Shown one piece after another: positions 9,104-57,703 of a DNA stretch of 64,000 nt. The DNA lies in contig OZ037766.1 of assembly GCA_964035545.1 (NCBI GenBank), positions 12,514,722-12,578,721 of the forward strand, written 5' to 3'. Under the pieces are notes generated by a model, which saw only the letters and a list, made by a program, of their open reading frames with translations, had not been told where the DNA came from and searched no databases. The DNA is from Bugula neritina. Its lineage: Eukaryota > Animalia > Bryozoa. The first letter of the stretch is position 1. Every line of letters begins with the position of its first letter. A program made the position numbers and the translations under genes.

Positions 9104-9363
9104 TGTATATAGCCATTGAAATTTGTGCTTGAACGAAATCAAATGTACAGTTCTCTATTTACTGCCATAGACGCTGATAAGTATTATGAGTTCTTAATGG
9201 CACTGCTAATGGAAATTACTGTTATAAAGTCAGCTGGAAAAAGTACTATTACATGTTAAGAATAATATCCACTTTTTATTTTTTACTACTGAACGCTATT
9301 TACAATAAAGTCAAAAAATTCTTTACATAGACAGTATTAAACATGTATTATGTACATAAGTTA

Positions 9364-21293: not shown

Positions 21294-22502
21294 ATGGCTA
21301 GTACTAGCACAACCACTAGGCCAGCGACAATTGCTAGTACTAGTAGTACTAGTAGTAGCCGTTCGATCAATCGTCGTGGAACAGCAACAAGCACAAAAAG
21401 CAAGCTGAGTAAGAATACTAACAGTAACAGTGACAACAACATTAAACGTCTAAGAGTAAGTTATAAGCTCGTAGAACCAGACCTAGATTTAGAAACTGAA
21501 GTCGTGGATCATAATCGTACTCGTAGCGGTAGTGATACTCATACTGATATCAAGTTTCGTAATCTTCCTCCTACTCCTAATCAAAGTGAATGTGATGATC
21601 ACAATCATAGTGATACGTCTCTTTGTAAAAAGTATAGAAGTGAATCTATGGATTCAGAGCTTGACTCTCAGCAGTTACAAATAGTATTACCAGACGAAGA
21701 TCAAAATGAAAATGTATATCAAGATGATCGTCGAACACAGCTTGAAGTACAATCAGAATCTGGGCATGGTGATGGTTCTGAAATAGATCACCCTTATGAT
21801 TCTGGGTATGATCCAAAACCGTTGACATTTGATAGCTCATCATCTGAAGACATGATGCCCAATGAATATGAGGAGGATGATGAAGGAAGTACTAGTAGCG
21901 CCAAAGCTAAAAAAAGATTGAAAAGAAGCAGTGGCAAAGGTTTTAAAGGTGGAAATAGTGATGAACAGGGCGAAGAACAAGATGAAAGGGCCGAAAAAAA
22001 TAGACTCAGTGCCAAAGAGTGCCGTATTCGTAAAAAACTTAGATACCAGTATTTAACAGAGTTGATAGCTCACAGTGAAGATGCAGTTTTCAAATTACGG
22101 AATGAATTGCAAGAGGTTTGTTCAATTTCTGTACATAAACGTGTTTTCTAATTTTATTCTTTAGTAGGGACATGCTAAGACATCTTTGAGTAATCTAGAG
22201 TGATATTTGCTATGGCTATAATTCACTGCTGTTGGTGTAGCTTTTGTATACTTTGCATTGCACATAGTTAGTATCACTTAAGTGTAGATACCCGTTTTTT
22301 AATTTCTTTCTTTGCATATAGGCACTGGTTAAATTGCTTTTACTCTTTGCCGTGTTGTTTTATCTTCGCACACTATATGTTTACTTAATAACTGAGGAAA
22401 TGTAATTGCATGTGTGTTTATCCTTTTCACTCAATCCTGTTGCAGCTTGAGAAACAGTGTACAGAAATAGATAGACGGAATATGGAATCTGTAGATGATT
22501 AA
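21294..22502 (+). CDS. bZIP transcription factor, CREBL2/REPTOR-BP-like, with a long Ser/Thr-rich and acidic N-terminus; exons 21294-22115, 22446-22502 (292 aa)
   Basis: KNRLSAKECRIRKKLRYQYLTELIAHSEDAVFKLRNELQE|LEKQC resembles the CREBL2 bZIP SARECRARKKLRYQYLEELV..RERAI..LREELE; GT-AG intron in phase 0. Confidence 0.82.
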
Positions 22503-28735: not shown

Positions 28736-29725
28736 CTAATTAGTGTCTACCGGTCGAACTACTCTGTGAGCGCAAGTAGGTCTTCTTAAAATACGTTTTA
28801 CATGGTTAACATAATTTGGATGAAAATAAATAAACATAAAAATGTTCTCAACACCATACATTGAAAGCAAAATTTGAACTGCTGTTTCTACAGCAATGAT
28901 AATTGATGTGGATAAAAATTTAACGCTATGACAAATCAGAATTATAATAACAAACAAGAGGTTTACTTGGTAAACTATGAAACACCAAATAATATATTTA
29001 CTGGCCGATATAATAAGTTTATCTTCAGACAAATTTCTTTGGGTCATTATTTTCAATTCTTTCCATACTTTGACAAGCATTGCTGATATTATTTGCGAGA
29101 GAATGATATTTTGAATTCCAAATGAAATATACACTACATTGTATTCTAGAGTTTTATGCACCATTTGAGTTGCCAGGGGTGTCCAGCAAAACTTTATTTC
29201 TGGTATCATGATATGTGCAAGTGAGCTCAGCAATCCTAAGAAATATATCAGTACTGATACAGACTTTATATTCCTTATAAAGAAGTGTGTGCTATACTCG
29301 TATGGCTTACACACTCCAATATACTTCTCAAAGCTTGAAACGAAAAATGCCAAGAATCTGAGGCAAGCCGCACATCCTATTGCTGCTAGTGCAAGCTTTG
29401 ACATCCAATAACTTGTTGGTCTAGGAAGCTGTAAAATAGCTTCTCTGGTCTCACAATTGTAAAATGCAATACTTGAAATGCTGTATAAAACATCAGAGAC
29501 ACCCAAGTTCATCAGAATCCAAAAGTAGTTGGCTTTAATCTCTTTTATCTGAGATAGTACAAGGAGATGCAGAATGTTGATAATTATGGATAGGCAGTTT
29601 ACCCCATCCGCAATCTTTGCAAATGGGTCGTAGCATTGACTAGTGTCATTGTAACAGGGTAATATTTCTGTATACGACAATCTGTAGTTTTCCATAGTCA
29701 TAAATATAACTGATTTGACATGCAT
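28736..29725 (-). CDS. Intronless rhodopsin-like 7TM receptor (divergent orphan or chemoreceptor-like GPCR); true start may be a downstream Met (MTMEN)
   Basis: 329-aa ORF with seven hydrophobic segments; TM1 N, TM2 NLGVSD, TM3 SFEKYIGVCKP (DRY equivalent), degenerate TM7 ENIFMFIYFHPNY. Confidence 0.8.
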   Translation of the reverse strand: MHVKSVIFMTMENYRLSYTEILPCYNDTSQCYDPFAKIADGVNCLSIIINILHLLVLSQIKEIKANYFWILMNLGVSDVLYSISSIAFYNCETREAILQLPRPTSYWMSKLALAAIGCAACLRFLAFFVSSFEKYIGVCKPYEYSTHFFIRNIKSVSVLIYFLGLLSSLAHIMIPEIKFCWTPLATQMVHKTLEYNVVYISFGIQNIILSQIISAMLVKVWKELKIMTQRNLSEDKLIISASKYIIWCFIVYQVNLLFVIIILICHSVKFLSTSIIIAVETAVQILLSMYGVENIFMFIYFHPNYVNHVKRILRRPTCAHRVVRPVDTN

Positions 29726-29758
29726 AAGTGTCTACTATACCACCCATGGACAGAGTAG

Positions 29759-30234
29759 AGCAGAGATTATAGGGGGGGGAGGGGGTGAGGAGTATTATAT
29801 TGGATTTACATGGTTAGGAATGTCTTTGTCTTCAGATGTAAATATATCACTTGTTTTGTCTTTTGCCTTTTCTTGTTTCTGTAAGTAAAATACGAAAGTT
29901 TACCACTTAAGGAAAAACTGTATGACACGTTCAGATGTAAAATGTGTTTAGTGATGTACCTGCATGCATCAATGTATTACTGAGATTTTCACTTCAAGCA
30001 GAGATTATAGGGGGGGGAGGGGGTGAGGAGTATTATATTGGATTTACATGGTTAGGAATGTCTTTGTCTTCAGATGTAAATATATCACTTGTTTTGTCTT
30101 TTGCCTTTTCTTGTTTCTGTAAGTAAAATACGAAAGTTTACCACTTAAGGAAAAACTGTATGACACGTTCAGATGTAAAATGTGTTTAGTGATGTACCTG
30201 CATGCATCAATGTATTACTGAGATTTTCACTTCA
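29759..30234. repeat. Near-perfect 238-bp tandem duplication, followed by a 28-bp duplication (30234-30290)
   Basis: agcagagattataggggggggagggggtgagg... starts at 29759 and again at 29997. Confidence 0.95.
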
Positions 30235-30303
30235 TGCAGTTTCAGTCAGCTGCATATGGCTATGCAGTTTCAGTCAGCTGCATATGGCTATAGTTTATAT
30301 ATG

Positions 30304-31546
<1,243 letters not shown>

Positions 31547-31615
31547 GTACACACACATATGTACACATATGTACAGGCAGATACATCTAGATATATATTC
31601 ATATTATAAAATGAC

Positions 31616-32079
31616 AACACTAATGTTGCCTTTACTTTTACATATAGTATGTTAAGAAAACCATTTTTTTTAATTACTTATATAGGCAGGGTGCATGGCC
31701 TCATTTATATAATGTGTTTCCATTTCTATGAAAACACTATAAAGCATAAGACAGCACATGTTTATATCACACTAATGTTGCCTTTACTTTTACATATAGT
31801 ATGCTAAGAAAACCAATTTTTTTTAATTACTTATATAGGCAGGGTGCATGGCCTCATTTATATAATGTGTTTCCATTTCTATGAAAACACTATAAAGCAT
31901 AAGACAGCACATGTTTATATCACACTAATGTTGCCTTTACTTTTACATATTATAGTATGCTAAGAAAACCAATTTTTTTTAATTACTTATATAGGCAGGG
32001 TGCATAGCCTCATTTATATAATGTGTTTCCATTTCTATGAAAACACTATAAAGCATAAGACAGCACATGGTTATATCAC
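31616..32079. repeat. Three-copy tandem repeat, unit ~152-156 bp
   Basis: taatgttgcctttacttttacatat recurs at 31621, 31773 and 31926. Confidence 0.95.
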
Positions 32080-32303
32080 GTTTGTCTTGTTAGTAACCAG
32101 TGGCAAACATACAGTTCATTCACTGAAAGTCATAATGATGATATAAAAGGTTTTGTCAATAAATTGTAACTGCAGTGTTTAATGATGTATATTTTTGGGC
32201 AGCTTACAAAGTTTAACCATACTAATACATTATTTATATAATAGATGCTAACCAACAATTTAAAATTATTAATTGATTAAAGCCGCAGCCACTAAAAGAT
32301 AAT

Positions 32304-35584: not shown

Positions 35585-36507
35585 ACATGCCAAATATTTA
35601 CTACAAATTTCAAAAATAGCATAACTTAAATTGTATTACCGTGCCTATTTGCATCCAATTTACTAGTCTTACATTTATAGCAACTGTAACGTATTTTGTG
35701 TAAAATGGTTATTGCAAGCATTATTCAATTCATATTCACATTTAATCACAGCGAAGCTTAAACTTTATAGCTTTGTATTTATGTCCATGATTGAGTTTTA
35801 ATTTTTTTTAAAATTTTATATGCATTGAAAATATGTTTCCTTTATAACTTATATAAACTCGCAGTACCAATAGCGGCATAATAATTTTTAATGGTTTAAA
35901 GTCAACACTCCTAAATATACCACACTGGTATTTATATTATTACTTCAATAAAACTGGGTGCATGCAAGTGGGAGTTAAAGCATTTGGAAATTCCTAGATT
36001 CTAGGTGTCATTGAGATCAGTGTTGGTATAGTGATTTGTGTTCGAATTTCTAATCTTCAACTTTAACCTCCTCACTCCACCAATGAACTGGCAAACTCTA
36101 GTGACTCCCACCATCGCCCTTTAAACGACTTTTTTTATGACCACAACTTTGTGCTTCAAGCGATTTATAGATTATTTCATTTTTGTGTTTGAGTCGCCGA
36201 CTTTCACGTTAGCTACGCTTGTCAGTTAACTGCGCCCATTATTATTTACACTGCCGCTTGTGCAAACCGTTCTTAAAGTTTAGTGTCACTTTGCATAGTC
36301 ATAGTCATACTCCGTCACTTATCACTCATCATCTTTATGATTACCAGATCATAATTGAAATTTCCGTATAGCTGTATATTAAAATCCTTGTAAGAAGCTA
36401 TCTTACCATTGCTTAAATGTTGCTGATTTTTAAAGTTTAAGTTAAATTAATTCAGACTGATACCTGAATTGAAACTAACTAGAGTCTAGTACTACTACTA
36501 GTGCTAT

Positions 36508-37223
36508 TGTGGTAAAATTGTGTATAGTATAACTAAGGCTGTATTTCCCTTATTCTTATTAACTTCATTCCCATGGAATGCGTGTTTTCCTAGATATACA
36601 TCATTACATAGCTATAGTATTGTAACAGCTAAGTGTTAGTTGGCAATGATAGGATTAGCTATTATTCCCAGCTACTTATTACTACTGACGTGACTGGATT
36701 AGCTATTGTTTCTGACGGCTCACAGGAACACTTATATAATCAAGATAACCGGGATTTCCCTGCGAAGTTCGCTCGATTCGAGCGATTCCTTTATTCTAGC
36801 CCTGCGAATCCCTGCGATTCGAGCGAATTCCCTCGAATTCGCTCGGAACATTCTAGTGGAAATGTTTCCCAACGTATAAAAGGAGGCCCTCAACACAGTA
36901 GAGTCAGTCTTCAGCCAGCAGCACAACAGGACACATCTCGGAGCTACCAAGCCAGGACAATAACACACTTAGTTAATTATCTTATACTTTGTTTACCAGT
37001 TTACTAGTAAGTTCTCCATACATGTAAGGAGTTGTCCTCCCTAACTGCTATTTTTGGATATATATATATTATGGAGTAAATAAAGGGGATTGTGAGTATT
37101 ACATTTCTTATTTATTGTGCATAAATACCCTCCTACAAAGAGTCACTGTGTTCAATCAGCTAACAACCCACACCAATAATTGCATGCAGCGAATCATAAC
37201 ATTCTACGCATAAAATTATTACA
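36508..37223 (+). repeat. 5' LTR (716 bp)
   Basis: TGTGGTAAAA...ATTATTACA; TATAAAA 36875-36881; Inr-like TCAGT 36904-36908; AATAAA 37079-37084; no differences seen from the 3' LTR. Confidence 0.97.
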
Positions 37224-37224
37224 C

Positions 37225-37242
37225 TGGTGGCAGCGGTGGGAT
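37225..37242 (+). promoter_or_regulatory. Primer-binding site complementary to the 3' end of tRNA-Leu(AAG/TAG)
   Basis: TGGTGGCAGCGGTGGGAT, separated from the LTR by 1 nt, is the complement of ATCCCACCGCTGCCA-CCA, the eukaryotic tRNA-Leu 3' end. Confidence 0.88.
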
Positions 37243-37292
37243 AATCGTCTGGTACAGACTAAGCTGATGCTCCCCTACGGGGAGAGACAACA

Positions 37293-38393
37293 ATGGATCC
37301 ATTGAGGCCAGCGCCAGAGCTCGGGCCTGATGATGAACCAGCAGGAGGACGCTTCACCCTAGAGACATTGATTCGGACTCTCTGGGAAGACAGGGCAGCT
37401 GTACAGGCTCCACCTGGTGACAGGTTCCGCCTTAAAGCGCCAGTCTTCGACGGTGAAGGAAATGTAGAACAATTTCTACAGGAATTCCGCGAGGTGGCCG
37501 TGGCCTCCCAGTGGCCGGCCCAGGTGGAATTACTGCAACTACGGTCCTGCCTGACAGGTCGAGCCAAACCCTATGCGGTAGGCCCGAATAGGGACTACAT
37601 CATTGAGGCTCTGCGCGGCCGCTTCGGACTTACCGTCCGGGACGCGAGAGCCCGCCTACAAGGACTCCGACGAGACCCTAAGGTCTCACTACAGGATCAC
37701 GCCAACAAAGTGGAGCAGCTAGTCCAGGTAGCCTACGGTAACGTAGACCTGGAGTCACGCCAGGCCATCACCTTTGATATCTTCCTGCAATCGCTCAATA
37801 ACCTGAGCCTGCAACGGTATCTCTTGGCAGCTGGGGTCGACACCATTGAGGCTGCTCTGACCAGAGGAAAGGCGTACTACCAGATCGGCGGGAGTCAGGA
37901 CTGTGACAGCAGTGCCCGACGAGTCGAGTCAGACTGGGGAGAGGCTGCCGAAGACATTCGGCTGAGGCCTCAAGTAGCGGCCTCCGCCACTACACCCCCA
38001 ACCCCACCCGAACTCTCCATGGTATTGGAGGTGGTGGACAAACTGCAAGAAGAGATCGCAACATTGCGACGGGCCCAAACTACTGACAGACCGGATCGGT
38101 CATACGGTAGTCAGCCCAACAAGGACGCTCAGTTAGAGCCTAGGGTAGCAGCTACTGCACCTACCCCATCGACCTCAGCCGAAGTCTCCATGGTACTGGA
38201 GGTGGTGCGAGATCTACAGGCCGAAGTTAAGGCCCTGAGACGGGCCCAAACTACTAACCGGCCGAATCAGCCACGTAGTAGTCGCCCCGAAGGGTCTTCT
38301 CTCACGTGTTGGAAGTGTGGGACAACAGGTCATGTGCAACGAGACTGTCCCCGAGGACGCAGCGGTCCGTTAAACACCCAAGGCCTGCGGTAA
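37293..38393 (+). CDS. gag: Gag (capsid region, duplicated 57-aa helical unit, CCHC zinc knuckle)
   Basis: APVFDGEGNVEQFLQEF...L.G.A capsid N-terminal motif; CWKCGTTGHVQRDC knuckle. Confidence 0.93.
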   Translation: MDPLRPAPELGPDDEPAGGRFTLETLIRTLWEDRAAVQAPPGDRFRLKAPVFDGEGNVEQFLQEFREVAVASQWPAQVELLQLRSCLTGRAKPYAVGPNRDYIIEALRGRFGLTVRDARARLQGLRRDPKVSLQDHANKVEQLVQVAYGNVDLESRQAITFDIFLQSLNNLSLQRYLLAAGVDTIEAALTRGKAYYQIGGSQDCDSSARRVESDWGEAAEDIRLRPQVAASATTPPTPPELSMVLEVVDKLQEEIATLRRAQTTDRPDRSYGSQPNKDAQLEPRVAATAPTPSTSAEVSMVLEVVRDLQAEVKALRRAQTTNRPNQPRSSRPEGSSLTCWKCGTTGHVQRDCPRGRSGPLNTQGLR

Positions 38394-41300
38394 TCTCCGC
38401 CACCCGCAGGCCGAGTCTCCAGACTCACCCGAGGAGGGTTTACTCTGCACCCAGGGAGGCGCAGACGAAACCCCCCTCATCCGAATGGCAAGCTCCCCGG
38501 AGAACTTGGAGGCCGAAAGGCCTGCCCGAACCTCCAGCTTGGCCACTCAACAACCGGTTCGCGGGGTTACCCGAGGAGGTTGTGGAGGAGGATACTGATT
38601 CCGACCGGGATTTCCCCCGACTGCCCCCCAAACCTCAGAAAACCCCCGTGGTCCCTAGGACGTGTAAGAGGCCTACCGTCCAGACCCAGGAAGTGTCTCC
38701 CCCAGAGACAGACTACTCGAAGCACACCCAACCATACGGAAGCAGCTATTTCCTGCCCGGCAAGATTGCGGGCAAAGCTGCCACCTTCCTGTTGGACACT
38801 GGGTGCACCACAAACCTTCTGAGTAGGCGTCTCTTCGACACTCTTGGCGCTCGGGAGCGGGAAAGCCTCAAGCCGTATAATGGTGAGCACGGTACGTTGG
38901 CGGACGGATCGAGCATACCATTTTACGGCCTCATCTCACTACCCGGAAGAGTTCGGGATCTCGTAATCCACGAGACCTTCATAGTGAGTCACCTGAAGGA
39001 GGATGCTATTCTTGGCATGCCCTTCCTTGAGGAGCACCAATGCCACATGGACTTCAACAAGTCAGCAATAGTGGTGGATGGCAAGGAACTTACCTGCGTG
39101 GATAAGTTCGGCAGGCCTCTGGTAGGAGGCGTACAGGTGGTCCGGGACAGCCTAATTCCCGGGCGCTCTCAGGCTACACTCCTGTGCAGGGTCAACTGCA
39201 AGGAGATCTCTGAGCTAGGGGTTGTGGAGGGCATGCACGGAAAGGTACAATTGGCAAACAGCCTGAATCGGCTAGACTGCCGTGGAGAGTTCCTGGTGCA
39301 GTGCATCAACCCCTACGCGGAGCCGGTGAAGTTATCGGCTGGTTCACTGGTGGGCAGGTATCACTCGGTTCAGGAGACTGATGTTGGGCCCACACTCGAT
39401 GCGACGTCGGAGACACCGAGTCGCCCCCTGGAGTCTGGCATGGGACCAGTCCCAGAGCATGTGGCGGAATTATACAAGGGAGCCTGTGGTGGTTGTGGAA
39501 GTAACGTGGAGCGCCAACGGATGGCCCAGTTACTTCGAGAGTACCAAGATGTATTCAGCCAAGGAGACGAGGACATGGGGTTGACTAACGTAGTGCGGCA
39601 CGAGATACCCCTAGTAACCGGGACTGCCCCCATACGACAACCCACTCGACGGCTGGGCCCGGAAAAGGAGAGGGAGGTTAGCCGGCAAGTCCAGGACTTG
39701 CTTGATCGGGACCTGATTGAGCCAGCCCACGGTGCGTGGAGCTCACCAGTCGTTCTGGTCAAAAAGAAGGATGGGAGCTGGAGATTCTGCGTTGATTACC
39801 GCAAGTTGAACAGCGTCACCATCCAGGATGCCTACCCCCTCCCCCGGATAGACGAGTCGCTAGATGCCCTCGCGGGAAGTAGATACTTCAGCACGCTGGA
39901 CCTACTGAGTGGATACTGGCAAGTACCCCTCAGTCCTGATGCACAGGACAAGGCCGCGTTCATCACCCGCGATGGCCTCTGGAGATGGAAGGTGTTGCCA
40001 TTCGGGCTGACATCCGCCCCGGCCACCTTTCAGCGGCTCATGGAGCAGGTCCTCAGTGGGTTACACTGGAAGACGCTGCTAGTCTATCTGGACGACGTCA
40101 TTGTTATCTCGCCAGACTTTTCGACTCATGTCAGTCGTCTGCGCGAGGTCTTTGACCGTCTCCGGGCCGCCGGGCTAAAGCTTAAACCCTCGAAATGTGC
40201 TCTCCTGCAGCAGGAAGTCAAATATCTCGGACATGTGGTCAGCCGGGACGGCGTTGCCACCGACCCCGAGAAAGTACGGGCCGTACAAGACTGGACTGTT
40301 CCCCAAGATATCCATGAACTGAGAGCGTTCCTAGGACTGGTGGGATATTACCGGCAGTATATCCCTGAATTCGCAGGTATGGCACAGCCATTAAATCGGC
40401 TAACCGCCAAAGGAGTCCGGTGGCGTTGGACTCAGGAAGAACAACAGGCTTTTGATCATCTCAAGGCCCGGCTAGTGGAGGCACCCATCCTGGCTTACCC
40501 CGACCCGACCAAACAGTATATCTTGGATACAGACGCTAGCGACCACAGTATGGGGGCTGTGTTGTCCCAGGTACAAGGAGGTACCGAGGTAGTGGTGGCG
40601 TACTACAGCAAGGCCCTCTCCTCCGCCGAAAGAAACTACTGCACGACCAGGAAGGAACTCCTAGCAGTAGTTAAGGCGGTGAAGCATTTCCGGCCATATC
40701 TATATGGTAGAACGTTCAGATTACGAACTGACCATGCATCACTGATATGGCTGTGCAAACGGGCCGAACCCTCCAGCCAGGTCGCCAGGTGGCTCGAAAT
40801 ACTTGCAGAATTCTCATATCGGATTGAACATCGCGCCGGCCGGAAGCATGGAAATGCTGATGGTCTGAGCCGTCGTCCAGAGAGAGACTGCAAGCAATGC
40901 CTCCATATAGAGAAGCGGGACGGGGGACCCGCCCGCTCGGAAGTCGAGACACAACTGAAGGAAACAGAAGCCTACAGGTGGGAACAAGGCCGACTGCAAT
41001 CCGATGTCCATTCAGATGCTGTCCAGGCCCTTCGGGTCAACCCCACCTTAGCCAGAAATGTCCAGGACTTGTGCCGATTACAGGAAACCCTGCCGGGGGT
41101 AGTGGGAGAGATATTCAGGGCCAAGAAGGAGGGGCGCCGGCCAGGTGAGGAGGAGCAGCGGCAGAAGGGCGTTGAATTCCAACAGTTCTGCCACCGCTGG
41201 GACTCCCTCAAATTCAACTCAGACGGATTGCTAACCATCTCCTTGGCAGCAGACAGGCAACACCAGGAACGGGAGCGGGTTGTGTGCCCACACCCCCTCC

Positions 41301-44227
41301 GGAGAGAGCTCATCTGGGAGACTCACAAGCAAGCCCATGCGGGGACCAGTAGAGTGATTCGGTGCCTACAGATGCGGTGGTACTGGCCTGGGATGACAAG
41401 GGATGTGAGGCTACAGATCCGGCAATGTGAAATCTGCCAGGCGAGTAAGCATGGCCGTTCTACCGAGACCACGGGACGGCGCAGGCTGTACGCCGGTCGC
41501 CCGTGGCAGACAGTGGCAGTCGACTTGGTGGGTCCCATGCCGACGTCCGCTCGTGGAAACAACTGGATTCTGGTACTAACGGATCATTTTACTAGGTGGG
41601 CAGATGCCTTGGCAATCCCGGACGCCTCCGCCCCGACGGTAGCCCGAGCTTTAGATCAGCACGTTTTCTGCTATTTCGGGCTACCGGAGCAGATCCACAC
41701 AGATCAAGGGGCACAGTTCCAATCACAGCTGATGAGGGACCTCTGTCGGGTATGGGGGGTCAACCAAAGTAGGACCACCCCCTACCACCCCCAAGGAAAT
41801 GGCGTAGTGGAACGCAACAACAGGATGTTGGGGGACGCCCTGAGAAGTCTACTACTAGGGAAAAGCCAAGAAGAATGGGACGCCGTGCTACCCCAGATCA
41901 TGCGTGCATATCGCAGTACTCCCCACTCTAGCACCCAGGAGACACCCAATTTCCTAATGCTAGGCCGGGAAACGCGGGTCCCGGATCATCTCACGTACCA
42001 CGTCCCCCTCCCAGAGGGACCTGTCCATGAATACGTGAGAGAGCTGGTTGATAGGATGCGGACGGCCCATGAGGTCTTAAGGGAAAAACAATGGCAAGTG
42101 CGAGGGGAAGACTCGGACGAGCCCCCACTCTACCAGGCTGGCGATTGGGTATGGATGATTAGTTACAGGAGGAAGCGCGGACAGTCGGCTAAATTACAGC
42201 CCAAGTTCGTGGGACCATACTGCATCATCGAAGTACTACCCAATCACACGTACCGCGTAGAACGCTCCGGACAGATTTCCGTCCAAAGCGAGAAACGCTT
42301 AAAACCGTACTGGGCCAGCCCTGGGGCAGTAGGACAAGCACCACCACTCCTGGAGCCAGCACGACGACCCACCGGGGGAGGAAGGGCGCCCCCCACCCGA
42401 GAGTGGGAACTCCCCTATAACATACCAGAGAGAAACCCCGAAGCACAAGAACCACCCCCCACTGTGCAAGAGCCCCCCGAGCAACCGGCACCTCAGGCGC
42501 CCCCACCAGTAAGACCACCCCCCGCCATACCAGAGAGGTTAGACCCACCTACCCTGGAAGTAGGAGAGAGTAGAGCCACCAACCCTGGGGGACAGGCCAC
42601 TTTGCCAGACACAGAAGGCCTAAGGCGTAGCCAGAGGACTCGAAGACCTCCTGGGTACTTAGGGGAATATTACTGTGGCCAGATAGGGAAAGGATACCTT
42701 AGCTCGGAGGACGAAGGGCCCCCCTTGTATTACAACTATTCACCACCTAACCACACCACCGGGGAGGCTCGATATCGGCAGGGGATCACTTCGAGGTTCC
42801 TCACCCAGATCGGACAAAAACCCGATCCCGAAGTTGGAAAAACCCAGGCGAGGGACTCTCGCGATAAACCACGAACGCATACTTCGTTCATTCCAATCGC
42901 AGCAAGCACACACGCCACACGGAATTTAATCTCTCGCCATCTAACAAATATGGATATTACACCCACTCACCTGAATGTTGAAGAAGAGTCCGGCGCACAC
43001 CCTGGTAAGTCCACTAGACTAGAATTACCTCCTATACCGGAGAATTGTCTAGGTGGTGATGACCGTAGGAACTCGAACTCTGATTCCCAGAGTAAGTTCG
43101 AGATGTGGAGAACTCACACTTGGAACTCTGGAGGGTCAGAGTCACCCAACAGAGATTACCTACTTGACCAGGACATCCAGAGTGTCACTCTACCCCCACC
43201 TCGGCAGCTCGCAGTATCGCGACGAGTGCCATATAAGGATATCACTAATAATAGAGTGAGTCAGCCATCACGAGTTGGAGATATCGGTCAGACTCGACCA
43301 GCTCAACTCTCTATTTCTGTTGTAGACACCGACAAAGTCGTAGAGCCTGCCTCTACGACTCTCACCTCATTCGGAAGATCCTCCGAAATCGCGACACCCC
43401 AGGAGCAAGTAATGGAGGGAGATACGGAGACCCCTGCCACTGTCGTCGATATTGGACTAGATGAAGGGGAGGAACAGTCTATCCTGTCCTCATCTGAGAC
43501 CACAGACCCTCCTCAAGGACTAGGAGGAGCTGGAGAGCTAGGATTACCACGCGTTTTCAGCACCCGGTCTCACTGGACCAGCACCAAGACGCGGATCCTG
43601 ATAGCTGAGGCCTGCGGGGAGCCTAGCAACACCAAGTGCCCCACCTGTGGGCGGAGCTTTACCTCACACAGGCGACTACGGATACACGTCCAACAACATT
43701 ACGTCAACTCATTCTGTCCGTGTGGGGAGTTTAGCTTCCAGCGTGACTACGTGCTCAAGCACCAACGTATCGGCCGCTGCCACACGGGCAGAATTTTTGA
43801 TGTAGATGCGGACAATTACCTAGAATTCAGGGACCTGATTCTCCCCCACATCAGCGATCCCAAGAAGAGGGAGCTGTTGTCCCAAGGGTTCCCGGCCTGT
43901 CGACCCACTAGTCAGACGCAACCGCCAGAAGACCCCCCAAGTTGTGAGTTGCCACCCACCCAGCCTCTCCGGGTAGTGGTAACTCGAGCCGAAGCTACTG
44001 CAGAAGGAGACCGCTGGACGCCACGAGAAACGGCCCGAACTAGAAGAGAACGGCGTAGACAGGGCGCACCGAGGCCGCGTAGTACCACTCCCTATGCTAC
44101 TAGGCACACACACCGTGGGCCCCCGGAGAGTCTAGAGGATGTATATCGTGGCCTGGACAGGATCTCTGAGGAACTAGGACGCATACGACGCAGACTGCAG
44201 GACCTGGAGCAGCCCGCTCGACCCTAA
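38306..44227 (+). CDS. pol: Pol polyprotein (PR, RT, RNase H, IN) with a long C-terminal extension carrying tandem C2H2 zinc fingers and a coiled coil; probably translated as a Gag-Pol fusion
   Basis: LLDTGC (D at 38795), YLDD 40085-40096, LDTDAS RNase H, H...H...CEIC, integrase DDE (VDLVGP/TDQG/VERNNR), GPY 42212-42220, CPTC...H...H from 43637. Confidence 0.95.
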   Translation: MLEVWDNRSCATRLSPRTQRSVKHPRPAVISATRRPSLQTHPRRVYSAPREAQTKPPSSEWQAPRRTWRPKGLPEPPAWPLNNRFAGLPEEVVEEDTDSDRDFPRLPPKPQKTPVVPRTCKRPTVQTQEVSPPETDYSKHTQPYGSSYFLPGKIAGKAATFLLDTGCTTNLLSRRLFDTLGARERESLKPYNGEHGTLADGSSIPFYGLISLPGRVRDLVIHETFIVSHLKEDAILGMPFLEEHQCHMDFNKSAIVVDGKELTCVDKFGRPLVGGVQVVRDSLIPGRSQATLLCRVNCKEISELGVVEGMHGKVQLANSLNRLDCRGEFLVQCINPYAEPVKLSAGSLVGRYHSVQETDVGPTLDATSETPSRPLESGMGPVPEHVAELYKGACGGCGSNVERQRMAQLLREYQDVFSQGDEDMGLTNVVRHEIPLVTGTAPIRQPTRRLGPEKEREVSRQVQDLLDRDLIEPAHGAWSSPVVLVKKKDGSWRFCVDYRKLNSVTIQDAYPLPRIDESLDALAGSRYFSTLDLLSGYWQVPLSPDAQDKAAFITRDGLWRWKVLPFGLTSAPATFQRLMEQVLSGLHWKTLLVYLDDVIVISPDFSTHVSRLREVFDRLRAAGLKLKPSKCALLQQEVKYLGHVVSRDGVATDPEKVRAVQDWTVPQDIHELRAFLGLVGYYRQYIPEFAGMAQPLNRLTAKGVRWRWTQEEQQAFDHLKARLVEAPILAYPDPTKQYILDTDASDHSMGAVLSQVQGGTEVVVAYYSKALSSAERNYCTTRKELLAVVKAVKHFRPYLYGRTFRLRTDHASLIWLCKRAEPSSQVARWLEILAEFSYRIEHRAGRKHGNADGLSRRPERDCKQCLHIEKRDGGPARSEVETQLKETEAYRWEQGRLQSDVHSDAVQALRVNPTLARNVQDLCRLQETLPGVVGEIFRAKKEGRRPGEEEQRQKGVEFQQFCHRWDSLKFNSDGLLTISLAADRQHQERERVVCPHPLRRELIWETHKQAHAGTSRVIRCLQMRWYWPGMTRDVRLQIRQCEICQASKHGRSTETTGRRRLYAGRPWQTVAVDLVGPMPTSARGNNWILVLTDHFTRWADALAIPDASAPTVARALDQHVFCYFGLPEQIHTDQGAQFQSQLMRDLCRVWGVNQSRTTPYHPQGNGVVERNNRMLGDALRSLLLGKSQEEWDAVLPQIMRAYRSTPHSSTQETPNFLMLGRETRVPDHLTYHVPLPEGPVHEYVRELVDRMRTAHEVLREKQWQVRGEDSDEPPLYQAGDWVWMISYRRKRGQSAKLQPKFVGPYCIIEVLPNHTYRVERSGQISVQSEKRLKPYWASPGAVGQAPPLLEPARRPTGGGRAPPTREWELPYNIPERNPEAQEPPPTVQEPPEQPAPQAPPPVRPPPAIPERLDPPTLEVGESRATNPGGQATLPDTEGLRRSQRTRRPPGYLGEYYCGQIGKGYLSSEDEGPPLYYNYSPPNHTTGEARYRQGITSRFLTQIGQKPDPEVGKTQARDSRDKPRTHTSFIPIAASTHATRNLISRHLTNMDITPTHLNVEEESGAHPGKSTRLELPPIPENCLGGDDRRNSNSDSQSKFEMWRTHTWNSGGSESPNRDYLLDQDIQSVTLPPPRQLAVSRRVPYKDITNNRVSQPSRVGDIGQTRPAQLSISVVDTDKVVEPASTTLTSFGRSSEIATPQEQVMEGDTETPATVVDIGLDEGEEQSILSSSETTDPPQGLGGAGELGLPRVFSTRSHWTSTKTRILIAEACGEPSNTKCPTCGRSFTSHRRLRIHVQQHYVNSFCPCGEFSFQRDYVLKHQRIGRCHTGRIFDVDADNYLEFRDLILPHISDPKKRELLSQGFPACRPTSQTQPPEDPPSCELPPTQPLRVVVTRAEATAEGDRWTPRETARTRRERRRQGAPRPRSTTPYATRHTHRGPPESLEDVYRGLDRISEELGRIRRRLQDLEQPARP
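38369..38437 (+). promoter_or_regulatory. -1 programmed ribosomal frameshift signal (G_UUA_AAC plus downstream stem-loop or pseudoknot)
   Basis: pol is in the -1 frame relative to gag. The heptamer at 38369-38375 is in gag frame (CCG TTA AAC), followed by a 6-nt spacer and a perfect 9-bp stem GGCCTGCGG/CCGCAGGCC. Confidence 0.8.
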
Positions 44228-44432
44228 TGGTGACACTTCTCTTTATGTAAATATATATTCTTGTGTGTATTAATTCATTATCCCTTAACATTTTCTATCT
44301 TATATATTTTTGTTTGTGTGACTAAATTAGCCATTCCAGAACTCCCTTACATGTATTTTCTTTTATTTTCTTCCTTTTTTTTATTATTATATTATTTTTT
44401 TTTGATTATATCAGAAAGGGGTTGTACTTTCT

Positions 44433-44446
44433 GATGGAGGGGAGTG
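44433..44446 (+). promoter_or_regulatory. Polypurine tract
   Basis: GATGGAGGGGAGTG immediately before the 3' LTR. Confidence 0.85.
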
Positions 44447-45162
44447 TGTGGTAAAATTGTGTATAGTATAACTAAGGCTGTATTTCCCTTATTCTTATTA
44501 ACTTCATTCCCATGGAATGCGTGTTTTCCTAGATATACATCATTACATAGCTATAGTATTGTAACAGCTAAGTGTTAGTTGGCAATGATAGGATTAGCTA
44601 TTATTCCCAGCTACTTATTACTACTGACGTGACTGGATTAGCTATTGTTTCTGACGGCTCACAGGAACACTTATATAATCAAGATAACCGGGATTTCCCT
44701 GCGAAGTTCGCTCGATTCGAGCGATTCCTTTATTCTAGCCCTGCGAATCCCTGCGATTCGAGCGAATTCCCTCGAATTCGCTCGGAACATTCTAGTGGAA
44801 ATGTTTCCCAACGTATAAAAGGAGGCCCTCAACACAGTAGAGTCAGTCTTCAGCCAGCAGCACAACAGGACACATCTCGGAGCTACCAAGCCAGGACAAT
44901 AACACACTTAGTTAATTATCTTATACTTTGTTTACCAGTTTACTAGTAAGTTCTCCATACATGTAAGGAGTTGTCCTCCCTAACTGCTATTTTTGGATAT
45001 ATATATATTATGGAGTAAATAAAGGGGATTGTGAGTATTACATTTCTTATTTATTGTGCATAAATACCCTCCTACAAAGAGTCACTGTGTTCAATCAGCT
45101 AACAACCCACACCAATAATTGCATGCAGCGAATCATAACATTCTACGCATAAAATTATTACA
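44447..45162 (+). repeat. 3' LTR (716 bp)
   Basis: Copy of 36508-37223 at offset 7939; the ORF track gives identical translations in both LTRs. Confidence 0.97.
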
Positions 45163-45509
45163 CTATTAGCCTATTACTATTAGTAGCAGCAGTAGCACTA
45201 CTAGTACTAGTACTACGTAGTGATACTGATAGTGATAGTCATACTGAAAGTGAATCTAATTCTCATGTTGCTGATTTAAAGTTAAACTTAAATTTATAGC
45301 TACGAGTATTACTATTAGTATTAGCGCTAGTACTAGTAGTCGTACTATGAGTCAACCATCACCATGCGACACTCACACTGAGGCATCTATTACTTTATTA
45401 CTATTACATTTACTGGATTTAGATTTACTATAACATCAAATAAGTGTTAGTAGCACGGACTATTAGTATTAGCATTACTAAACTATGATACTCTATCAGT
45501 ATCACTATG

Positions 45510-48200
45510 TGCATCTCAATCTGTAGTACCCACTCTGTATTCACTCTGTGTCGATAGAACATTAGATATCACAAAAATGTGTAAGTTAAATGCCTCGTTT
45601 ATAACAGTGTGTTACAGTGGGTAGGCGGTGAATCAGCATATCACTGATTTTTTTAATTATTCATGAATATTTATTTTCAAATCCCGTATTGTTCGGGGAA
45701 GGAAGCTGTTGTGGTAGACACTAGTCTTTGCAAATATTGATGTTAACTGTCCTCTGCTCGCAGCTCTAGTGGTCATAGTTGTATTTAATCGGTTGTTGAC
45801 GATCTCATCATAATTAGAAGATAAAGTATTATTGCTGGTTTCATTTTCTAGAATTTTGTGTAGTAATGTCATTCGATGGTTTCGTCTTCTGGATTCTAGT
45901 GGTACCAGTTCAAGAAGATTTCTGGCTTCAGTGACACTTTCCCGTCCTTTAACAGTACTTATGAAGCGGACAGCTTTCCGTTGGACACTTTCTATGAATT
46001 CAATGGTCTGTTTACTGGTGGGATCCCATAGAGTGTCCCCATACTCCAGTATCGGTCGACACAGGCTAGTGTATACCAATAATCGGCTTTTGGTAGGTGC
46101 AGAATGTAGTGTGTATTTAATAGCCCCAAGAATTTTGGTTGCTTTGCTGGTTTTTTGAGCGATGTGTTGGTCAAACTTTAGATCTTGCTGGAGCGTGATA
46201 CCAAGATAGCGAGTCTTGTCTGTCCAAGGTATGTCAGCATCACCTAGTTTATACGCGGGTGTTTGGCTTCTTTTGTTGAATGCTATTGCATGGCATTTGG
46301 ATGCGTTAAATGGCGTTTTCCATTTCTGCGACCATGCTTGTACAGCATCAATGTTTTTTTGAAATTCTACCGATTCCTCGTAGCAGTTGACTTCCTGGTA
46401 TAAGAGGGTATCATCTGCATAAAGGCTAACGTTACAAGTTACTACATCTGGTAGATCGTTGATATATACAAGGAAGAGTGTAGGCCCTAGAACTGAACCT
46501 TGAGGTACTCCGGATGTCACATCCCACACACTCGACATTTGATTCTTTAGAACTACTCTCTGTTTTCGCCCTGTCAGAAAGTCTTGAATCCAGTTTAAAA
46601 GGGAGTGGTCTAAATCAGGAATAGCTCTCAGTTTCTGCAGTAGCAAGCTATGTGGTACTTTGTCAAAAGCCTTTTTAAAGTCTAAGATAAGGGCATGTGT
46701 AATTTTGTTCTGTTCCATTGATTTAGCCAGATCATGGTAAGTGGCACATAGTTGGGTCTCGCAGGACATACCTCTCCGGAACCCATGTTGCCGATGGTGA
46801 AGGAAGACATCCAGTTTTTTGTTGAGGTGATGAAGGACAATATGTTCAAGAATCTTACATGGTATTGATGTTAGGGAAATAGGCCTGTAATTGAACACTT
46901 GGTTAGCCTCTCCTCCTTTGTGAATTGGGGTCACATTTGCCAGTTTCCATTGGTCAGGCAATCGGCCATATTTTATGGAGGCTCGATATATGTGACTGAG
47001 ACACTCAGCGGTGGTATGTATATCTATCATGAGGTCTGGTTTCCGGATCCCATCCGGTTCCGGAGACTTACCATTTTCTAGTGAGATAATCAGCTTAGCA
47101 ACACCATCTTCCGATATCTCTATTTTTTCATCGGGAGACTCCAATGGCGGGATACCATCAATACAGTGATCTTGGCAAAATTGCTGCTGAAAGAAATTAT
47201 TCAACATGTTTGCACACTCACTGGGGTCATCCGAGGATTGGCCGTTTGTTTGGAGGCTCATTGGTGGAGGACACTGCATTCTTGTGTTTCTCACGTGACG
47301 GTAGAAGGGCTTCGAGTTTCCTCGTGCGAGTGGGCCACATATTTTATCCACAAGGAAATTAGTTTTCATCCGTCGAACCTCTTTTTTAGTCGTCCTCCGC
47401 TCTTGCTTAAATTTTTTTAGGAAAAAGGAATCCCCAGTTTGTTTATATTTCTTATATGTTCTTCTTTGTTTAGAGACAAGTTTTTCAGCTGCTTTACCAA
47501 ACCACTCAGGTTGACTGGTCTTCTTGCGATTAAGCTCTTTTGTAGGAACACAATCCTCTATGTTTGCCTGTAGTTGACTGGTGAATAACAACCACATTTT
47601 GTTTAGATCCTCCATCCCTGCCAAGTTTTCACTGAGTTCCTGCATACGCTCACAAAAGGTCTCTTCATCAGCCTCTTTGTATCGTTTCACAATGAGTTTA
47701 GTGCTAGCTTTGTGCCGCTGGACCACAGGCTTTAATGTAGCACTTACAATGTAGTGATCACTCAAGCCAGGTTGAATGATGTCAGTATCCAAGACGTAGC
47801 CAGGTGTATTAATGCAGATGAGGTCTAATGTGTTTCCCTTGACATGAGTTGGCTCCAAAACCATCTGGCTCAGCATAAATTCATCCAGGATATTGATAAA
47901 CTCCCTGTGAATGTGCTTGTGTTGGCATTCAGTTATTTTAGCAGTTTTGCCTTTGGCTGATCTAGTATTTGCGAGAAAAAGTTTTAGCATGTTGTCTCCT
48001 TTGTTTGATTGAGAGCAGGGTTCAGCGGGCGCCATTCCCCCGATTAGAGTCGCTCTTCTATTCCAACTTTCGTTTCCCGGGTTCTGATGCGGTACTGTCT
48101 GTTTGCATTTGCGTCATCTTCTTTAAGTCTGCGAATTTGATCACGGAGTTGAAATTCTTTATCACGCATTTCTTTACTGGTATCAAGCTTGCAGAAAAAT
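45510..48200 (-). mobile_element. 5'-truncated non-LTR retrotransposon (LINE, APE-RT type): ORF1 C-terminal remnant, ORF2 and 3' UTR; ends approximate
   Basis: ORF1-like tail DTSKEMRDKEFQLRDQIRRLKEDD...YRIR (~48185-48050) followed by the ORF2 below; no TSD found. Confidence 0.85.
45657..48035 (-). CDS. LINE ORF2: internally deleted AP endonuclease plus apparently intact reverse transcriptase
   Basis: LANTRS, PTH..NTLDL and SDHY endonuclease motifs; NYRPISLTS, QHGFR, LDFKKAFD, GVPQGSVLGP, YADD and YLG RT motifs. Confidence 0.9.
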   Translation of the reverse strand: MAPAEPCSQSNKGDNMLKLFLANTRSAKGKTAKITECQHKHIHREFINILDEFMLSQMVLEPTHVKGNTLDLICINTPGYVLDTDIIQPGLSDHYIVSATLKPVVQRHKASTKLIVKRYKEADEETFCERMQELSENLAGMEDLNKMWLLFTSQLQANIEDCVPTKELNRKKTSQPEWFGKAAEKLVSKQRRTYKKYKQTGDSFFLKKFKQERRTTKKEVRRMKTNFLVDKICGPLARGNSKPFYRHVRNTRMQCPPPMSLQTNGQSSDDPSECANMLNNFFQQQFCQDHCIDGIPPLESPDEKIEISEDGVAKLIISLENGKSPEPDGIRKPDLMIDIHTTAECLSHIYRASIKYGRLPDQWKLANVTPIHKGGEANQVFNYRPISLTSIPCKILEHIVLHHLNKKLDVFLHHRQHGFRRGMSCETQLCATYHDLAKSMEQNKITHALILDFKKAFDKVPHSLLLQKLRAIPDLDHSLLNWIQDFLTGRKQRVVLKNQMSSVWDVTSGVPQGSVLGPTLFLVYINDLPDVVTCNVSLYADDTLLYQEVNCYEESVEFQKNIDAVQAWSQKWKTPFNASKCHAIAFNKRSQTPAYKLGDADIPWTDKTRYLGITLQQDLKFDQHIAQKTSKATKILGAIKYTLHSAPTKSRLLVYTSLCRPILEYGDTLWDPTSKQTIEFIESVQRKAVRFISTVKGRESVTEARNLLELVPLESRRRNHRMTLLHKILENETSNNTLSSNYDEIVNNRLNTTMTTRAASRGQLTSIFAKTSVYHNSFLPRTIRDLKINIHE

Positions 48201-55900: not shown

Positions 55901-57703
55901 TAAATACATAAATATGTAAACATACAGAAGTATAAATATATAATTATATAAATATATAAATATATGAATATATAAATATATATATATATATAAGTATACA
56001 TTGGGTATATGCATAAACGAATGTATAATATATACATGTATACTTGAGCTCAGCAACTTGAAGTTTTATGCTTCCAAGTAAAAACTAAATCAAATCAAAC
56101 AAGACTTACAGTGTGCATTCTGTGTGGTAGATGGATATAACATCTGATCGATAGTTGGATTTCGAATTTTTATTCCTGAGTATCTGTGATCTACGTCAGA
56201 AGAGCTAGACCACGTCGACTGGGTACTGCGATATGAGGATGTGGTATTGTGATGCTGTTTAAAAGATTCTTCGCGTTTCTTATAGTTACCAAGAGTGCTA
56301 TATTTTCTTTCATCAGAATAATACTTGACATCCTCCCTTGGCGATGTTTCACTGTGGGAGACTTGTGAAACAGCCCGTCTTATAGAGCCGCCTGGAGCCA
56401 GTGAAACACTTCTAGGTGGTGAGTTGCAAGTTATCAAGATTTCGCCATAACTTGCTCTTCTTCTCGGCTTGCTGTAACTGCTACTCCTTGTGGGGAGAGT
56501 GTTGGCACTGTATGCTGTGGGAGTTGTTCTCTCAAACCAACTATTTGACTGATCACTATCCGGTCTATAAATAGCCTTTTGGGGAGACAGTGGAGAGTTG
56601 CTTGTTATCACGACTCTTGGTGTTGGAGTATCGTAGTTATTATTGCTGTTGATTTCCAGCAAAGACAGTGGCCGTTGTCTAATCCCAGTTCTGTTTAGCT
56701 TGATATGATGCCAGGTAGGCTTCTTGTCATCCATGTGGTGAACAGGTATTTCCATCGTGCCACCATTGTGTGTAGTGTTGTTAATTAATGTCTTCCCTTT
56801 TACACTCTGGTCATTTCCAACACCGAATTCTCTCTTGTTAGGAGATTGTGAATTAGTAGGAGTAAAATCAGCAGCTGGTTTTAAAGCTTTTGGTTCCGAA
56901 AGGTTGAATTGCAAAAACGAATGTTGAGCTTTTTGGGGGAAACTATGGTGTGGCAACGTAGCTGGAGGCACAGTGGTGTGTTTTCTTACAGATTGCAGAG
57001 GCTTTTGTGGGACTAATGGCGGCTTATTTACCACTTTGGGTTTTTGAAAATTAGCAATTCTTTGTTCCGCTTCAGCTTTTCGTTGCTTTCTTAGAAATAC
57101 ATTTCTCAAGTCAGCATAACTTGGGAAGTTCTCATCAATGTCAGGATCTTCTCGAGTATTCTTAATAACTCGGTTGCCAGACTCAAAGTTACCAGGCACA
57201 ATAGACTCTGGTTGCTGCTGCTGATATTGTTGCTGTTGCTGCTGACAATAGTTTTCGTATTGTTGTGTTATTGGTTGTAATGGTTGTTGATATTGAATTG
57301 GTTGGTGATCATAATTTTCAAATTGCTGTATAAACGGAGATGTCTGTTGTTGTATCTCTGGTTTGTGTGTTTGTCCTACTTGCCAGTGCTCTTGGGAATT
57401 CTGGCTGTGTTCTTGAACTTGCTCAGGTGTAATAAATTGGCTTTCTCCATGCGAGGTCTGTTGCAGATCTAAAGGCTGTTTCTTGTAGAAGCTATTAACT
57501 TTGAATCTTGGAGGTGGATTAGATTGAGAATTTAAAGGTTCGGGATTTGTGGAATAAAAGGGTGCAGGGGAACGATTATATGATGGATAGGAAGACTGGA
57601 GACTGGGTTGATAGCACATGTGACTAGACAAGGGAGTAAAAGCATTTGTATTACTACCTATATCGGTGTAGTCAGTAGCAAATTGCTTCCATGGATGCTC
57701 CAT
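52964..57703 (-). CDS. Uncharacterised Gln/Pro/Ser-rich, largely disordered protein (~648 aa); exons 57703-56110, 54614-54524, 53225-52964; may have upstream exons
   Basis: A 1.6-kb open exon preceded by an acceptor at 57709-57710; two further GT-AG exons join in frame (phases 1 and 2); total 1,947 nt. Confidence 0.72.
55350..55991. repeat. ~220-bp direct duplication (55350-55570 and 55774-55991) with a unique spacer, intronic
   Basis: catcagattttttctgcaatggaacagc...aatatatatata occurs twice at offset ~424. Confidence 0.9.

What the first reader, a model, noticed from the sequence alone, without database searches (positions are those of the whole stretch)
42310..44227. Gypsy pol continues ~640 aa past integrase into tandem C2H2 zinc fingers and a coiled coil: an accessory module that is neither env nor a chromodomain
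Seen: after the integrase GPY module the ORF stays open through a Pro-rich linker, LRRSQRTRRPPGYLGEY (~42620-42670), a Ser/Thr/acidic region, CPTCGRSFTSHRRLRIHVQQH and FCPCGEFSFQRDYVLKHQRIGRCH (43637-43783), an Arg-rich patch and a heptad segment LEDVYRGLDRISEELGRIRRRLQDLE. Established: the LRRSxRxRRPP motif usually marks the end of Gypsy pol, and known additions after integrase are chromodomains or env. Inference: this is a transcription-factor-like module (zinc finger DNA binding, NLS, dimerisation) that could direct integration, transactivate the LTR or counter silencing. The element looks very young, so the module may be functional.
Basis: partly seen in the sequence, partly recalled or inferred. 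Interest (0 to 1): 0.85.

Follow-up and report, generated by a model that had tools for sequence, protein, structure and literature searches.

The report
Zinc-finger regulator fused to Gypsy integrase
A young, intact animal retrotransposon carries, fused in frame behind its integrase, a conserved two-zinc-finger domain that matches no catalogued family and also turns up in annotated bryozoan genes; it likely binds DNA and may switch on the element's own promoter, which is untested.

Summary
Observation confirmed, with corrections. An intact Ty3/Gypsy element (36508-45162, identical 716-bp LTRs) has a pol frame that stays open 638 codons past integrase. The conserved part is one ~120-residue domain: a C2H2 finger, an atypical CxC-H-C finger and flanking helices. 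AlphaFold models it confidently (pLDDT 92, pTM 0.83). No Pfam family covers it. A profile search finds 326 relatives at E<=0.001. The fusion is a lineage trait, not an accident of this copy: a family with only 52% RNase H-integrase identity has the same in-frame layout, three more keep the end-of-pol motif in frame, and one keeps the protease plus the module without RT or integrase. Relatives usually share an acidic leader, a basic patch and a terminal heptad helix. Bryozoan gene models carry the domain without pol. The LTR has two inverted CGAGCGA pairs just upstream of the TATA box, a candidate target. Best reading: an element-encoded DNA-binding regulator of its own LTR (0.45); rivals are integration targeting and RNA export. 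Binding and expression are untested. The scan noted a similar fusion in another genome (e1-7276517, unchecked).

The parts
36504..36507 (+). target-site duplication CTAT (second copy 45163-45166)
36508..37223 (+). 5' LTR, 716 bp, TG...CA, identical to the 3' LTR
36751..36845 (.). U3 motif cluster: two inverted pairs of CGAGCGA (36769-36785, 36820-36845), three CCTGCGA and one GGGATTTCCC, just upstream of the TATA-like TATAAAA at 36875; candidate binding sites (inferred)
   Evidence: CGAGCGA occurs 4 times per LTR and nowhere else in the window
37225..37242 (+). primer-binding site TGGTGGCAGCGGTGGGAT (tRNA-Leu type; assignment recalled, not tested)
   Evidence: sequence
37263..38393 (+). gag frame (first ATG 37293), one CCHC knuckle
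   Evidence: PF00098
38369..38375 (+). G TTA AAC, likely -1 frameshift site between gag and pol
   Evidence: sequence; pol is in the -1 frame relative to gag; function inferred
38282..42310 (+). pol: protease, RT, RNase H, integrase with H2C2, core and GPY/SH3 parts
   Evidence: RT closest to Ty3 RT among solved structures
42310..42670 (+). Pro-rich linker and end-of-pol motif LRRSQRTRRPPGYLGEY
   Evidence: motif also in P0006, P0008, P0172, P0175
42950..43537 (+). net-acidic low-complexity leader starting at Met1557 (possible internal start); activation-domain-like (inferred)
   Evidence: (31 D/E against 16 K/R; 22 of 25 relatives net acidic)
43538..43906 (+). conserved ~120-residue zinc domain: helix, C2H2 finger (43637-43699), CxC-H-C finger (43715-43780), strand and two helices
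43961..44062 (+). QPLRVV motif and Arg-rich patch (NLS-like, inferred)
44126..44209 (+). terminal amphipathic heptad helix
   Evidence: helix 203-230, pLDDT 94-96 in its core
44430..44446 (+). polypurine tract before the 3' LTR
   Evidence: sequence
44447..45162 (+). 3' LTR

Best explanation
The tail is an old accessory module of a lineage of animal Ty3/Gypsy elements, encoded in frame at the end of pol, and it likely acts as a DNA-binding regulator that keeps the element's own LTR promoter active. Shown: the open frame, the conserved zinc domain, its in-frame link to pol in distant families, and the recurring layout of acidic leader, zinc domain, basic patch and terminal helix. Inferred: it is made as part of Gag-Pol after a -1 frameshift and is freed by the element's protease, or made separately from the internal Met1557. 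It would then enter the nucleus through the basic patch, pair through the terminal helix, bind the inverted CGAGCGA half-sites in U3 with the zinc domain, and recruit transcription machinery or hold off silencing with the acidic leader. If it travels with integrase, it would reach each new insertion first.
For: The domain is 47-64% identical in eight distant relatives while the flanking linkers are mostly 12-27% identical. All seven first zinc ligands are invariant in 58 of 58 rows. P0172 has RNase H, integrase, linker and the domain in one frame, with 52% pol identity and 37% domain identity to the window. P0146/P0161 keep protease plus module with no RT, RNase H or integrase hit, so the module is kept where there is no integrase to steer. 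Bryozoan gene models keep the domain without pol. The finger-1 helix is basic: R/K at +2 in at least 48, +3 in at least 41 and +5 in at least 44 of 58 rows; finger-2 positions -1 and +3 vary between subfamilies. The best structural matches are DNA-bound finger pairs over both fingers (Kaiso Z 3.5, rmsd 2.7 over 57 residues). The leader is net acidic in 22 of 25 relatives, and a heptad helix follows in 56 of 88. U3 holds CGAGCGA four times as two inverted pairs just upstream of the TATA-like box; 4 of 300 shuffles reach that count for any GC-rich 7-mer.
Against: No binding or expression data exist. The structural matches are weak (Z at most 3.5, no Foldseek hit at E<=0.001). The finger linker is 5 residues and finger-1 position +6 is mostly hydrophobic (V/I/L in 41 of 58), unlike canonical base-reading arrays. 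The U3 repeats could serve host factors: a kappaB-like GGGATTTCCC lies beside them (name recalled), and I could not check whether they co-vary with the fingers in relatives. The in-frame fusion at the integrase end is the slot that chromodomains occupy, which fits targeting. The acidic bias, the basic patch count (60 of 88, no control) and the heptad score are home-made measures. P0146/P0161 are known as proteins only. A 99%-identical copy (P0003) was called without pol upstream, and P0004 is out of frame with the window in the linker.
Confidence: 0.45

Rival explanations
1. Integration-targeting module: the zinc domain stays attached to integrase and tethers it to a DNA motif or chromatin feature, as chromodomains do in chromoviruses.
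For: In frame behind integrase in the window and P0172, and behind the end-of-pol motif in P0006, P0008 and P0175. Same slot as the chromodomain (PMC2774666, passages). The finger-1 basic face is similar across families, as expected for a shared host target.
Against: Kept with protease but without integrase in P0146/P0161. It sits 340-420 residues behind the end-of-pol motif in three families, on a poorly conserved linker (112 in P0175). The acidic leader and terminal helix are not needed for simple tethering. Only one insertion site is available.
Confidence: 0.27
2. Rev/CERV-like RNA-binding factor that exports or protects the unspliced genomic RNA.
For: Arg-rich patch, oligomer-type helix and zinc domain; precedent in Cer1 CERV, which has a leucine zipper, an NLS and a Cys-rich loop and is needed for genomic RNA export (PMC10309623, abstract and section 9).
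Against: The Arg-rich stretch is conserved only as charge (5-9 identities in 26-43 aligned residues in distant relatives). CERV comes from a spliced mRNA that overlaps gag, not from the end of pol. A factor made only from exported genomic RNA could not start its own export unless an internal or spliced mRNA exists.
Confidence: 0.15
3. Passenger: a captured host zinc-finger gene or a read-through of a lost stop codon, with no role for the element.
For: Host-annotated bryozoan proteins carry the domain. Many database relatives are short or broken. P0004 is out of frame in the linker.
Against: The same in-frame layout occurs in families with 52% pol identity. Zinc ligands are invariant. 9 of 13 coding differences to the main form in run X2 are silent (p 0.001-0.006, dN/dS about 0.15-0.21), there is no stop, and the only listed indel is an in-frame 6 bases.
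Confidence: 0.04

Closest known systems
Ty3/Gypsy chromoviruses (chromodomain at the integrase C-terminus)
   Same: Extra domain in frame behind the GPY/F module of integrase (PMC2774666, passages).
   Different: No chromodomain hit; here a ~640-residue extension with a zinc domain, acidic leader, basic patch and heptad helix.
Cer1 CERV protein (C. elegans Gypsy element)
   Same: Gypsy-encoded nuclear regulator with leucine zipper, basic NLS and a Cys-rich loop (PMC10309623, abstract and section 9).
   Different: CERV is a separate protein from a spliced mRNA sharing exons with gag, has a C4-type loop and a G-protein-like domain, and has no homologue outside nematodes by that paper; this module is pol-fused with C2H2 + C2HC fingers. 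No direct sequence comparison was run.
Non-env ORF3s of bdelloid rotifer LTR elements (GDSL, DEDDy, coiled-coil, TM)
   Same: Accessory coding capacity after pol in an invertebrate LTR element (PMC5408684, passages).
   Different: Those are separate ORFs; the paper's main text has 0 hits for 'zinc' or 'finger'.
Foamy-virus Tas and HTLV Tax (recalled, from no call)
   Same: Retroelement-encoded activator of its own LTR, encoded 3' of pol: the proposed working analogy.
   Different: Separate spliced or internally promoted genes of complex retroviruses; no homology claimed or tested.
Classical tandem C2H2 arrays (Kaiso, SALL4, CTCF)
   Same: Finger 1 fits the C2H2 pattern; the two fingers superpose weakly on DNA-bound pairs (Z 3.0-3.5).
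   Different: Second finger is CxC-x12-H-x5-C, the linker is 5 residues in 57 of 58 rows, and extra helices and a strand make one compact predicted domain.

Membership tests
Ty3/Gypsy (Metaviridae) LTR retrotransposon | LTRs with TG...CA ends, target-site duplication, PBS and PPT | tested here: met
   identical 716-bp LTRs, CTAT duplication; PBS and PPT read from the sequence
Ty3/Gypsy (Metaviridae) LTR retrotransposon | pol order PR-RT-RH-IN with Ty3-like RT | tested here: met
   domain order; best hits Ty3 RT (E 2e-92)
Ty3/Gypsy named clade (Mag, Osvaldo, CsRn1, Gmr1 and others) | RT phylogeny with reference elements | not testable with these tools
   no GyDB, RepBase or Dfam references on hand; Gmr1 order (IN before RT, PMC2774666 passage) is not met
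Chromovirus | chromodomain behind integrase | tested here: not met
   no chromodomain family at E<=1 in the 1981-residue protein; the tail's only conserved globular part is the zinc domain
Errantivirus / env-bearing Gypsy | env with signal peptide and transmembrane anchor after pol | tested here: not met
   no further ORF before the 3' LTR, highest hydropathy window 0.54, no env family
Classical C2H2 (Kruppel-type) tandem zinc-finger protein | C-x2-C-x12-H-x3-H repeats | tested here: inconclusive
   finger 1 fits the pattern but stays under Pfam cut-offs; finger 2 is CxC-H-C
Classical C2H2 (Kruppel-type) tandem zinc-finger protein | TGEKP-type 7-residue linker between fingers | tested here: not met
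   5 residues in 57 of 58 rows
Classical C2H2 (Kruppel-type) tandem zinc-finger protein | sequence-specific DNA binding | not testable with these tools
   needs EMSA, SELEX or ChIP
CERV/Rev-like export factor | made from a spliced subgenomic mRNA and binds genomic RNA | not testable with these tools
   no raw RNA reads were available

The most novel reading that the evidence does not exclude
A widespread lineage of marine-invertebrate Gypsy elements are 'complex' retrotransposons that encode their own sequence-specific transcription activator with an uncatalogued two-zinc domain. It is delivered with integrase to each new insertion, binds paired sites in the LTR, and has been taken over more than once as host transcription-factor genes in bryozoans.
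Probability: 0.25. Interest if true: 0.85.

Novelty: new variant of a known kind. Interest (0 to 1): 0.62.

Why it matters
Gypsy elements are usually treated as simple gag-pol(-env) units that rely on host factors for transcription and, outside chromoviruses, have few known targeting modules. A conserved, pol-fused zinc domain of no catalogued family defines an unrecognised group of elements with added regulation. It offers a small, well-folded domain and a candidate 7-base site for a direct binding test. Its presence in bryozoan gene models also points to a possible route from retrotransposon to host regulator, or the reverse.

Tried and rejected
No host genome is held, so copy number, insertion sites and family-wide dN/dS could not be had. 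The ESM Atlas gave no answer. Scans for DNA loci of relatives failed: metagenome contigs none or two matches to finger 1 alone, dropped (L001, L002); viral contigs none with the module, integrase or RT; prokaryote genomes one weak hit, dropped (L003). Searches for longer proteins found only P0003, P0004, P0006, P0008 or nothing, which is weak evidence; P0172 and P0161 came from cluster look-ups instead (30 of 150 listed representatives were looked up). No RNA holder listed; the two runs laid are contigs and cannot show splicing or expression. The two-copy complex job gave no answer (score 0.02). Foldseek found no match at E<=0.001 in PDB or BFVD, and VIA-align none at Z>=5; this does not show that the fold is new. 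No Pfam family covers the whole domain in 58 members. The domain tree is a quick tree of 115 rows and 126 columns with 57 of 112 branches open; five proteins (P0138, P0003, P0142, P0115, P0094) and short hits were left out, and it cannot give the direction of transfer. The internal-start idea rests on a Met 211-231 residues before finger 1 in five near relatives, a post hoc and weak sign. Eight literature searches (listings read) showed no description of this module; subscription papers, RepBase, Dfam, GyDB and all supplements were not seen and may hold such elements.
Full report
The element. The window is AT-rich animal-type DNA with one GC-rich island at 37-44 kb. The island is a complete LTR retrotransposon: two identical 716-bp LTRs (36508-37223, 44447-45162) with TG...CA ends and a CTAT target duplication, a primer-binding site (tRNA-Leu type, recalled), a gag frame with one CCHC knuckle, and a pol frame in the -1 register with protease, RT, RNase H and integrase in Ty3/Gypsy order. 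The RT is closest to Ty3 among solved structures. Identical LTRs mean a very recent insertion. No host genome is held, and the clade could not be named.

The observation. The pol frame runs from 38282 to 44227 without a stop. The 638 codons after the integrase GPY/SH3 part are open, whereas the other five frames hold 18-33 stops and none of 2000 matched simulations is open. There is no chromodomain or env hit and no membrane segment.

What is conserved. A search with the last 425 residues gave 11 relatives. Their alignment shows one strongly conserved block of about 120 residues (43538-43906), 47-64% identical in eight distant relatives against mostly 12-27% in the linkers. A profile search of 1.84 billion representatives gave 326 proteins at E<=0.001 and 142 at E<=1e-10; of 163 stored hits examined, 156 match a profile of the core, one of them a generic poly-finger protein (P0138) that I dropped. 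In a 58-row alignment the seven ligands C, C, H, H, C, C, H are invariant, and the eighth is usually Cys (45 of 58). The pattern is C-x2-C-x12-H-x3-H, a 5-residue linker, then C-x-C-x12-H-x5-C (spacing 5/1/12 in 55 of 58). So the second finger is C2HC. No Pfam family covers the whole block; members give only sub-threshold C2H2 hits. AlphaFold models it as one compact unit (pLDDT 92.4, pTM 0.83). A longer model adds a low-confidence stretch and a confident terminal helix. Fold searches give only weak matches, led by DNA-bound finger pairs (Kaiso Z 3.5, rmsd 2.7 over 57 residues).

The fusion is a lineage trait. P0172 (1460 residues) carries RNase H, integrase, a Pro-rich linker, the end-of-pol motif, an acidic leader, the domain and a terminal helix in one frame; it is 52% identical to the window over RNase H-integrase and 37% over the domain. 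P0006, P0008 and P0175 keep the end-of-pol motif in frame with the domain. P0146 and P0161 carry a related protease (39% identical) and the module but no RT, RNase H or integrase hit, which reads as a deletion derivative that kept the module; only the proteins are known. Pol-linked rows fall in both halves of a poorly resolved tree. Most other hits are short gene calls whose upstream context I could not see. Against a strict fusion: P0003, a 99% copy, was called without pol upstream, and P0004 is out of frame in the linker and near its end. In run X2, which may be the window's own sample, high-depth contigs cover the whole tail; the main form differs at 13 coding sites, 9 silent and none a stop, plus one in-frame 6-base insertion, giving dN/dS about 0.15-0.21 (p 0.001-0.006). 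No single contig spans the tail. Run X1 holds a relative that is about 85-90% alike over gag-pol and also covers the tail.

Layout across the family. The 130-200 residues before the domain are net acidic in 22 of 25 relatives long enough to test. Of 88 proteins with at least 70 residues after the domain, 56 have a heptad helix above shuffles at p<=0.05 and 60 have a patch of five or more K/R in ten residues (home-made scores, the second without control). The finger-1 helix is uniformly basic, while finger-2 positions -1 and +3 vary between subfamilies. This is the layout of a transcription regulator: activation-like leader, DNA-binding domain, NLS-like patch, pairing helix. Each label is inferred.

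A candidate target. Just upstream of the TATA-like box (36875) the LTR holds CGAGCGA four times as two inverted pairs, with three CCTGCGA between them. The 7-mer occurs nowhere else in the window; it was picked after seeing the sequence, but only 4 of 300 shuffles reach four copies of any GC-rich 7-mer. Inverted half-sites suit a paired protein. Host factors could equally be the readers.

Host genes. Among 30 clusters looked up, named members were bryozoan: Watersipora subatra XP_067940964.1/XP_067940963.1 (two domain copies) and XP_067944745.1, and Bugula neritina KAF6040922.1, KAF6040923.1 and KAF6037488.1. Those scanned show no pol domain. XP_067944745.1 shares a distinct N-terminal segment with KAF6040922.1 and KAF6040923.1, which suggests a host family kept across two genera. 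Bryozoan rows lie at several places in the tree (the KAF6037488.1 link came later). Repeated domestication, capture from a host, and annotated element fragments are all still open.

Mechanism. I rank LTR regulation first (0.45) because the module is kept without integrase in P0146/P0161 and in host genes, has a regulator's layout, and faces a matching set of paired sites in U3. Integration targeting (0.27) is favoured by the conserved fusion in the chromodomain slot. RNA export in the manner of CERV (0.15) has precedent but little specific support. A passenger reading (0.04) is all but excluded.

Comparison with print. Known additions after Gypsy integrase include chromodomains (PMC2774666, passages), env (PMC13524379, passages; 0 hits for 'zinc finger' or 'C2H2') and enzymatic or coiled-coil ORF3s in rotifers (PMC5408684, passages). 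CERV is a zipper and Cys-loop regulator from a spliced mRNA (PMC10309623, abstract and section 9). A survey of annelid LTR clades has 0 hits for 'zinc' (PMC8556966, passages); PMC13228809 (passages) was not relevant. Eight searches showed no description of this module; repeat libraries and supplements were not seen.

Verdict. A real, conserved accessory module with an uncatalogued zinc domain in a lineage of animal Gypsy elements: a new variant of a known kind. Interest 0.62.

Noticed in passing
P0146 / P0161 (ENA contigs, no DNA held): 1145-1208-residue ORFs with a Gypsy protease and the zinc module but no RT, RNase H or integrase hit: a likely non-autonomous derivative present in at least two copies.
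   Followed up: partly
P0016, P0167, P0098, P0168, P0169, P0176: Bryozoan gene models (Watersipora subatra, Bugula neritina) with one or two copies of the domain; two Bugula genes have adjacent locus tags and share an unnamed N-terminal segment with a Watersipora gene.
   Followed up: partly
window 36751-36760 and 36846-36870: A kappaB-like GGGATTTCCC and a GAAnnTTC unit flank the U3 repeat cluster (names recalled); they may tie the LTR to immune or stress signals.
   Followed up: no
window 37960-38290: The C-terminal part of gag holds a duplicated ~57-residue segment (repeat family D18, spacing 171 bases).
   Followed up: no
window 45657-48113 (-): 818-codon frame with a non-LTR-type reverse transcriptase (RVT_1, E 1e-37), 500 bases from the 3' LTR.
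   Followed up: no
window 21294-22151 (+): Frame with a bZIP domain above the Pfam cut-off, a probable host gene exon.
   Followed up: no
window 28736-29731 (-): 331-codon frame with a weak rhodopsin-family GPCR match (E 3e-4).
   Followed up: no
window 9323-9664 (-): Pro/Gly/Met/Arg repeat frame (21-base unit), resembling the tail of snRNP protein B (recalled); no Pfam hit.
   Followed up: no
window 29759-32106: Tandem repeats (238-base pair of copies, 153-base units) and a strongly skewed stretch open in all six frames for 430-465 codons.
   Followed up: no
window 56090-57763 (-): 557-codon frame with no significant Pfam match.
   Followed up: no
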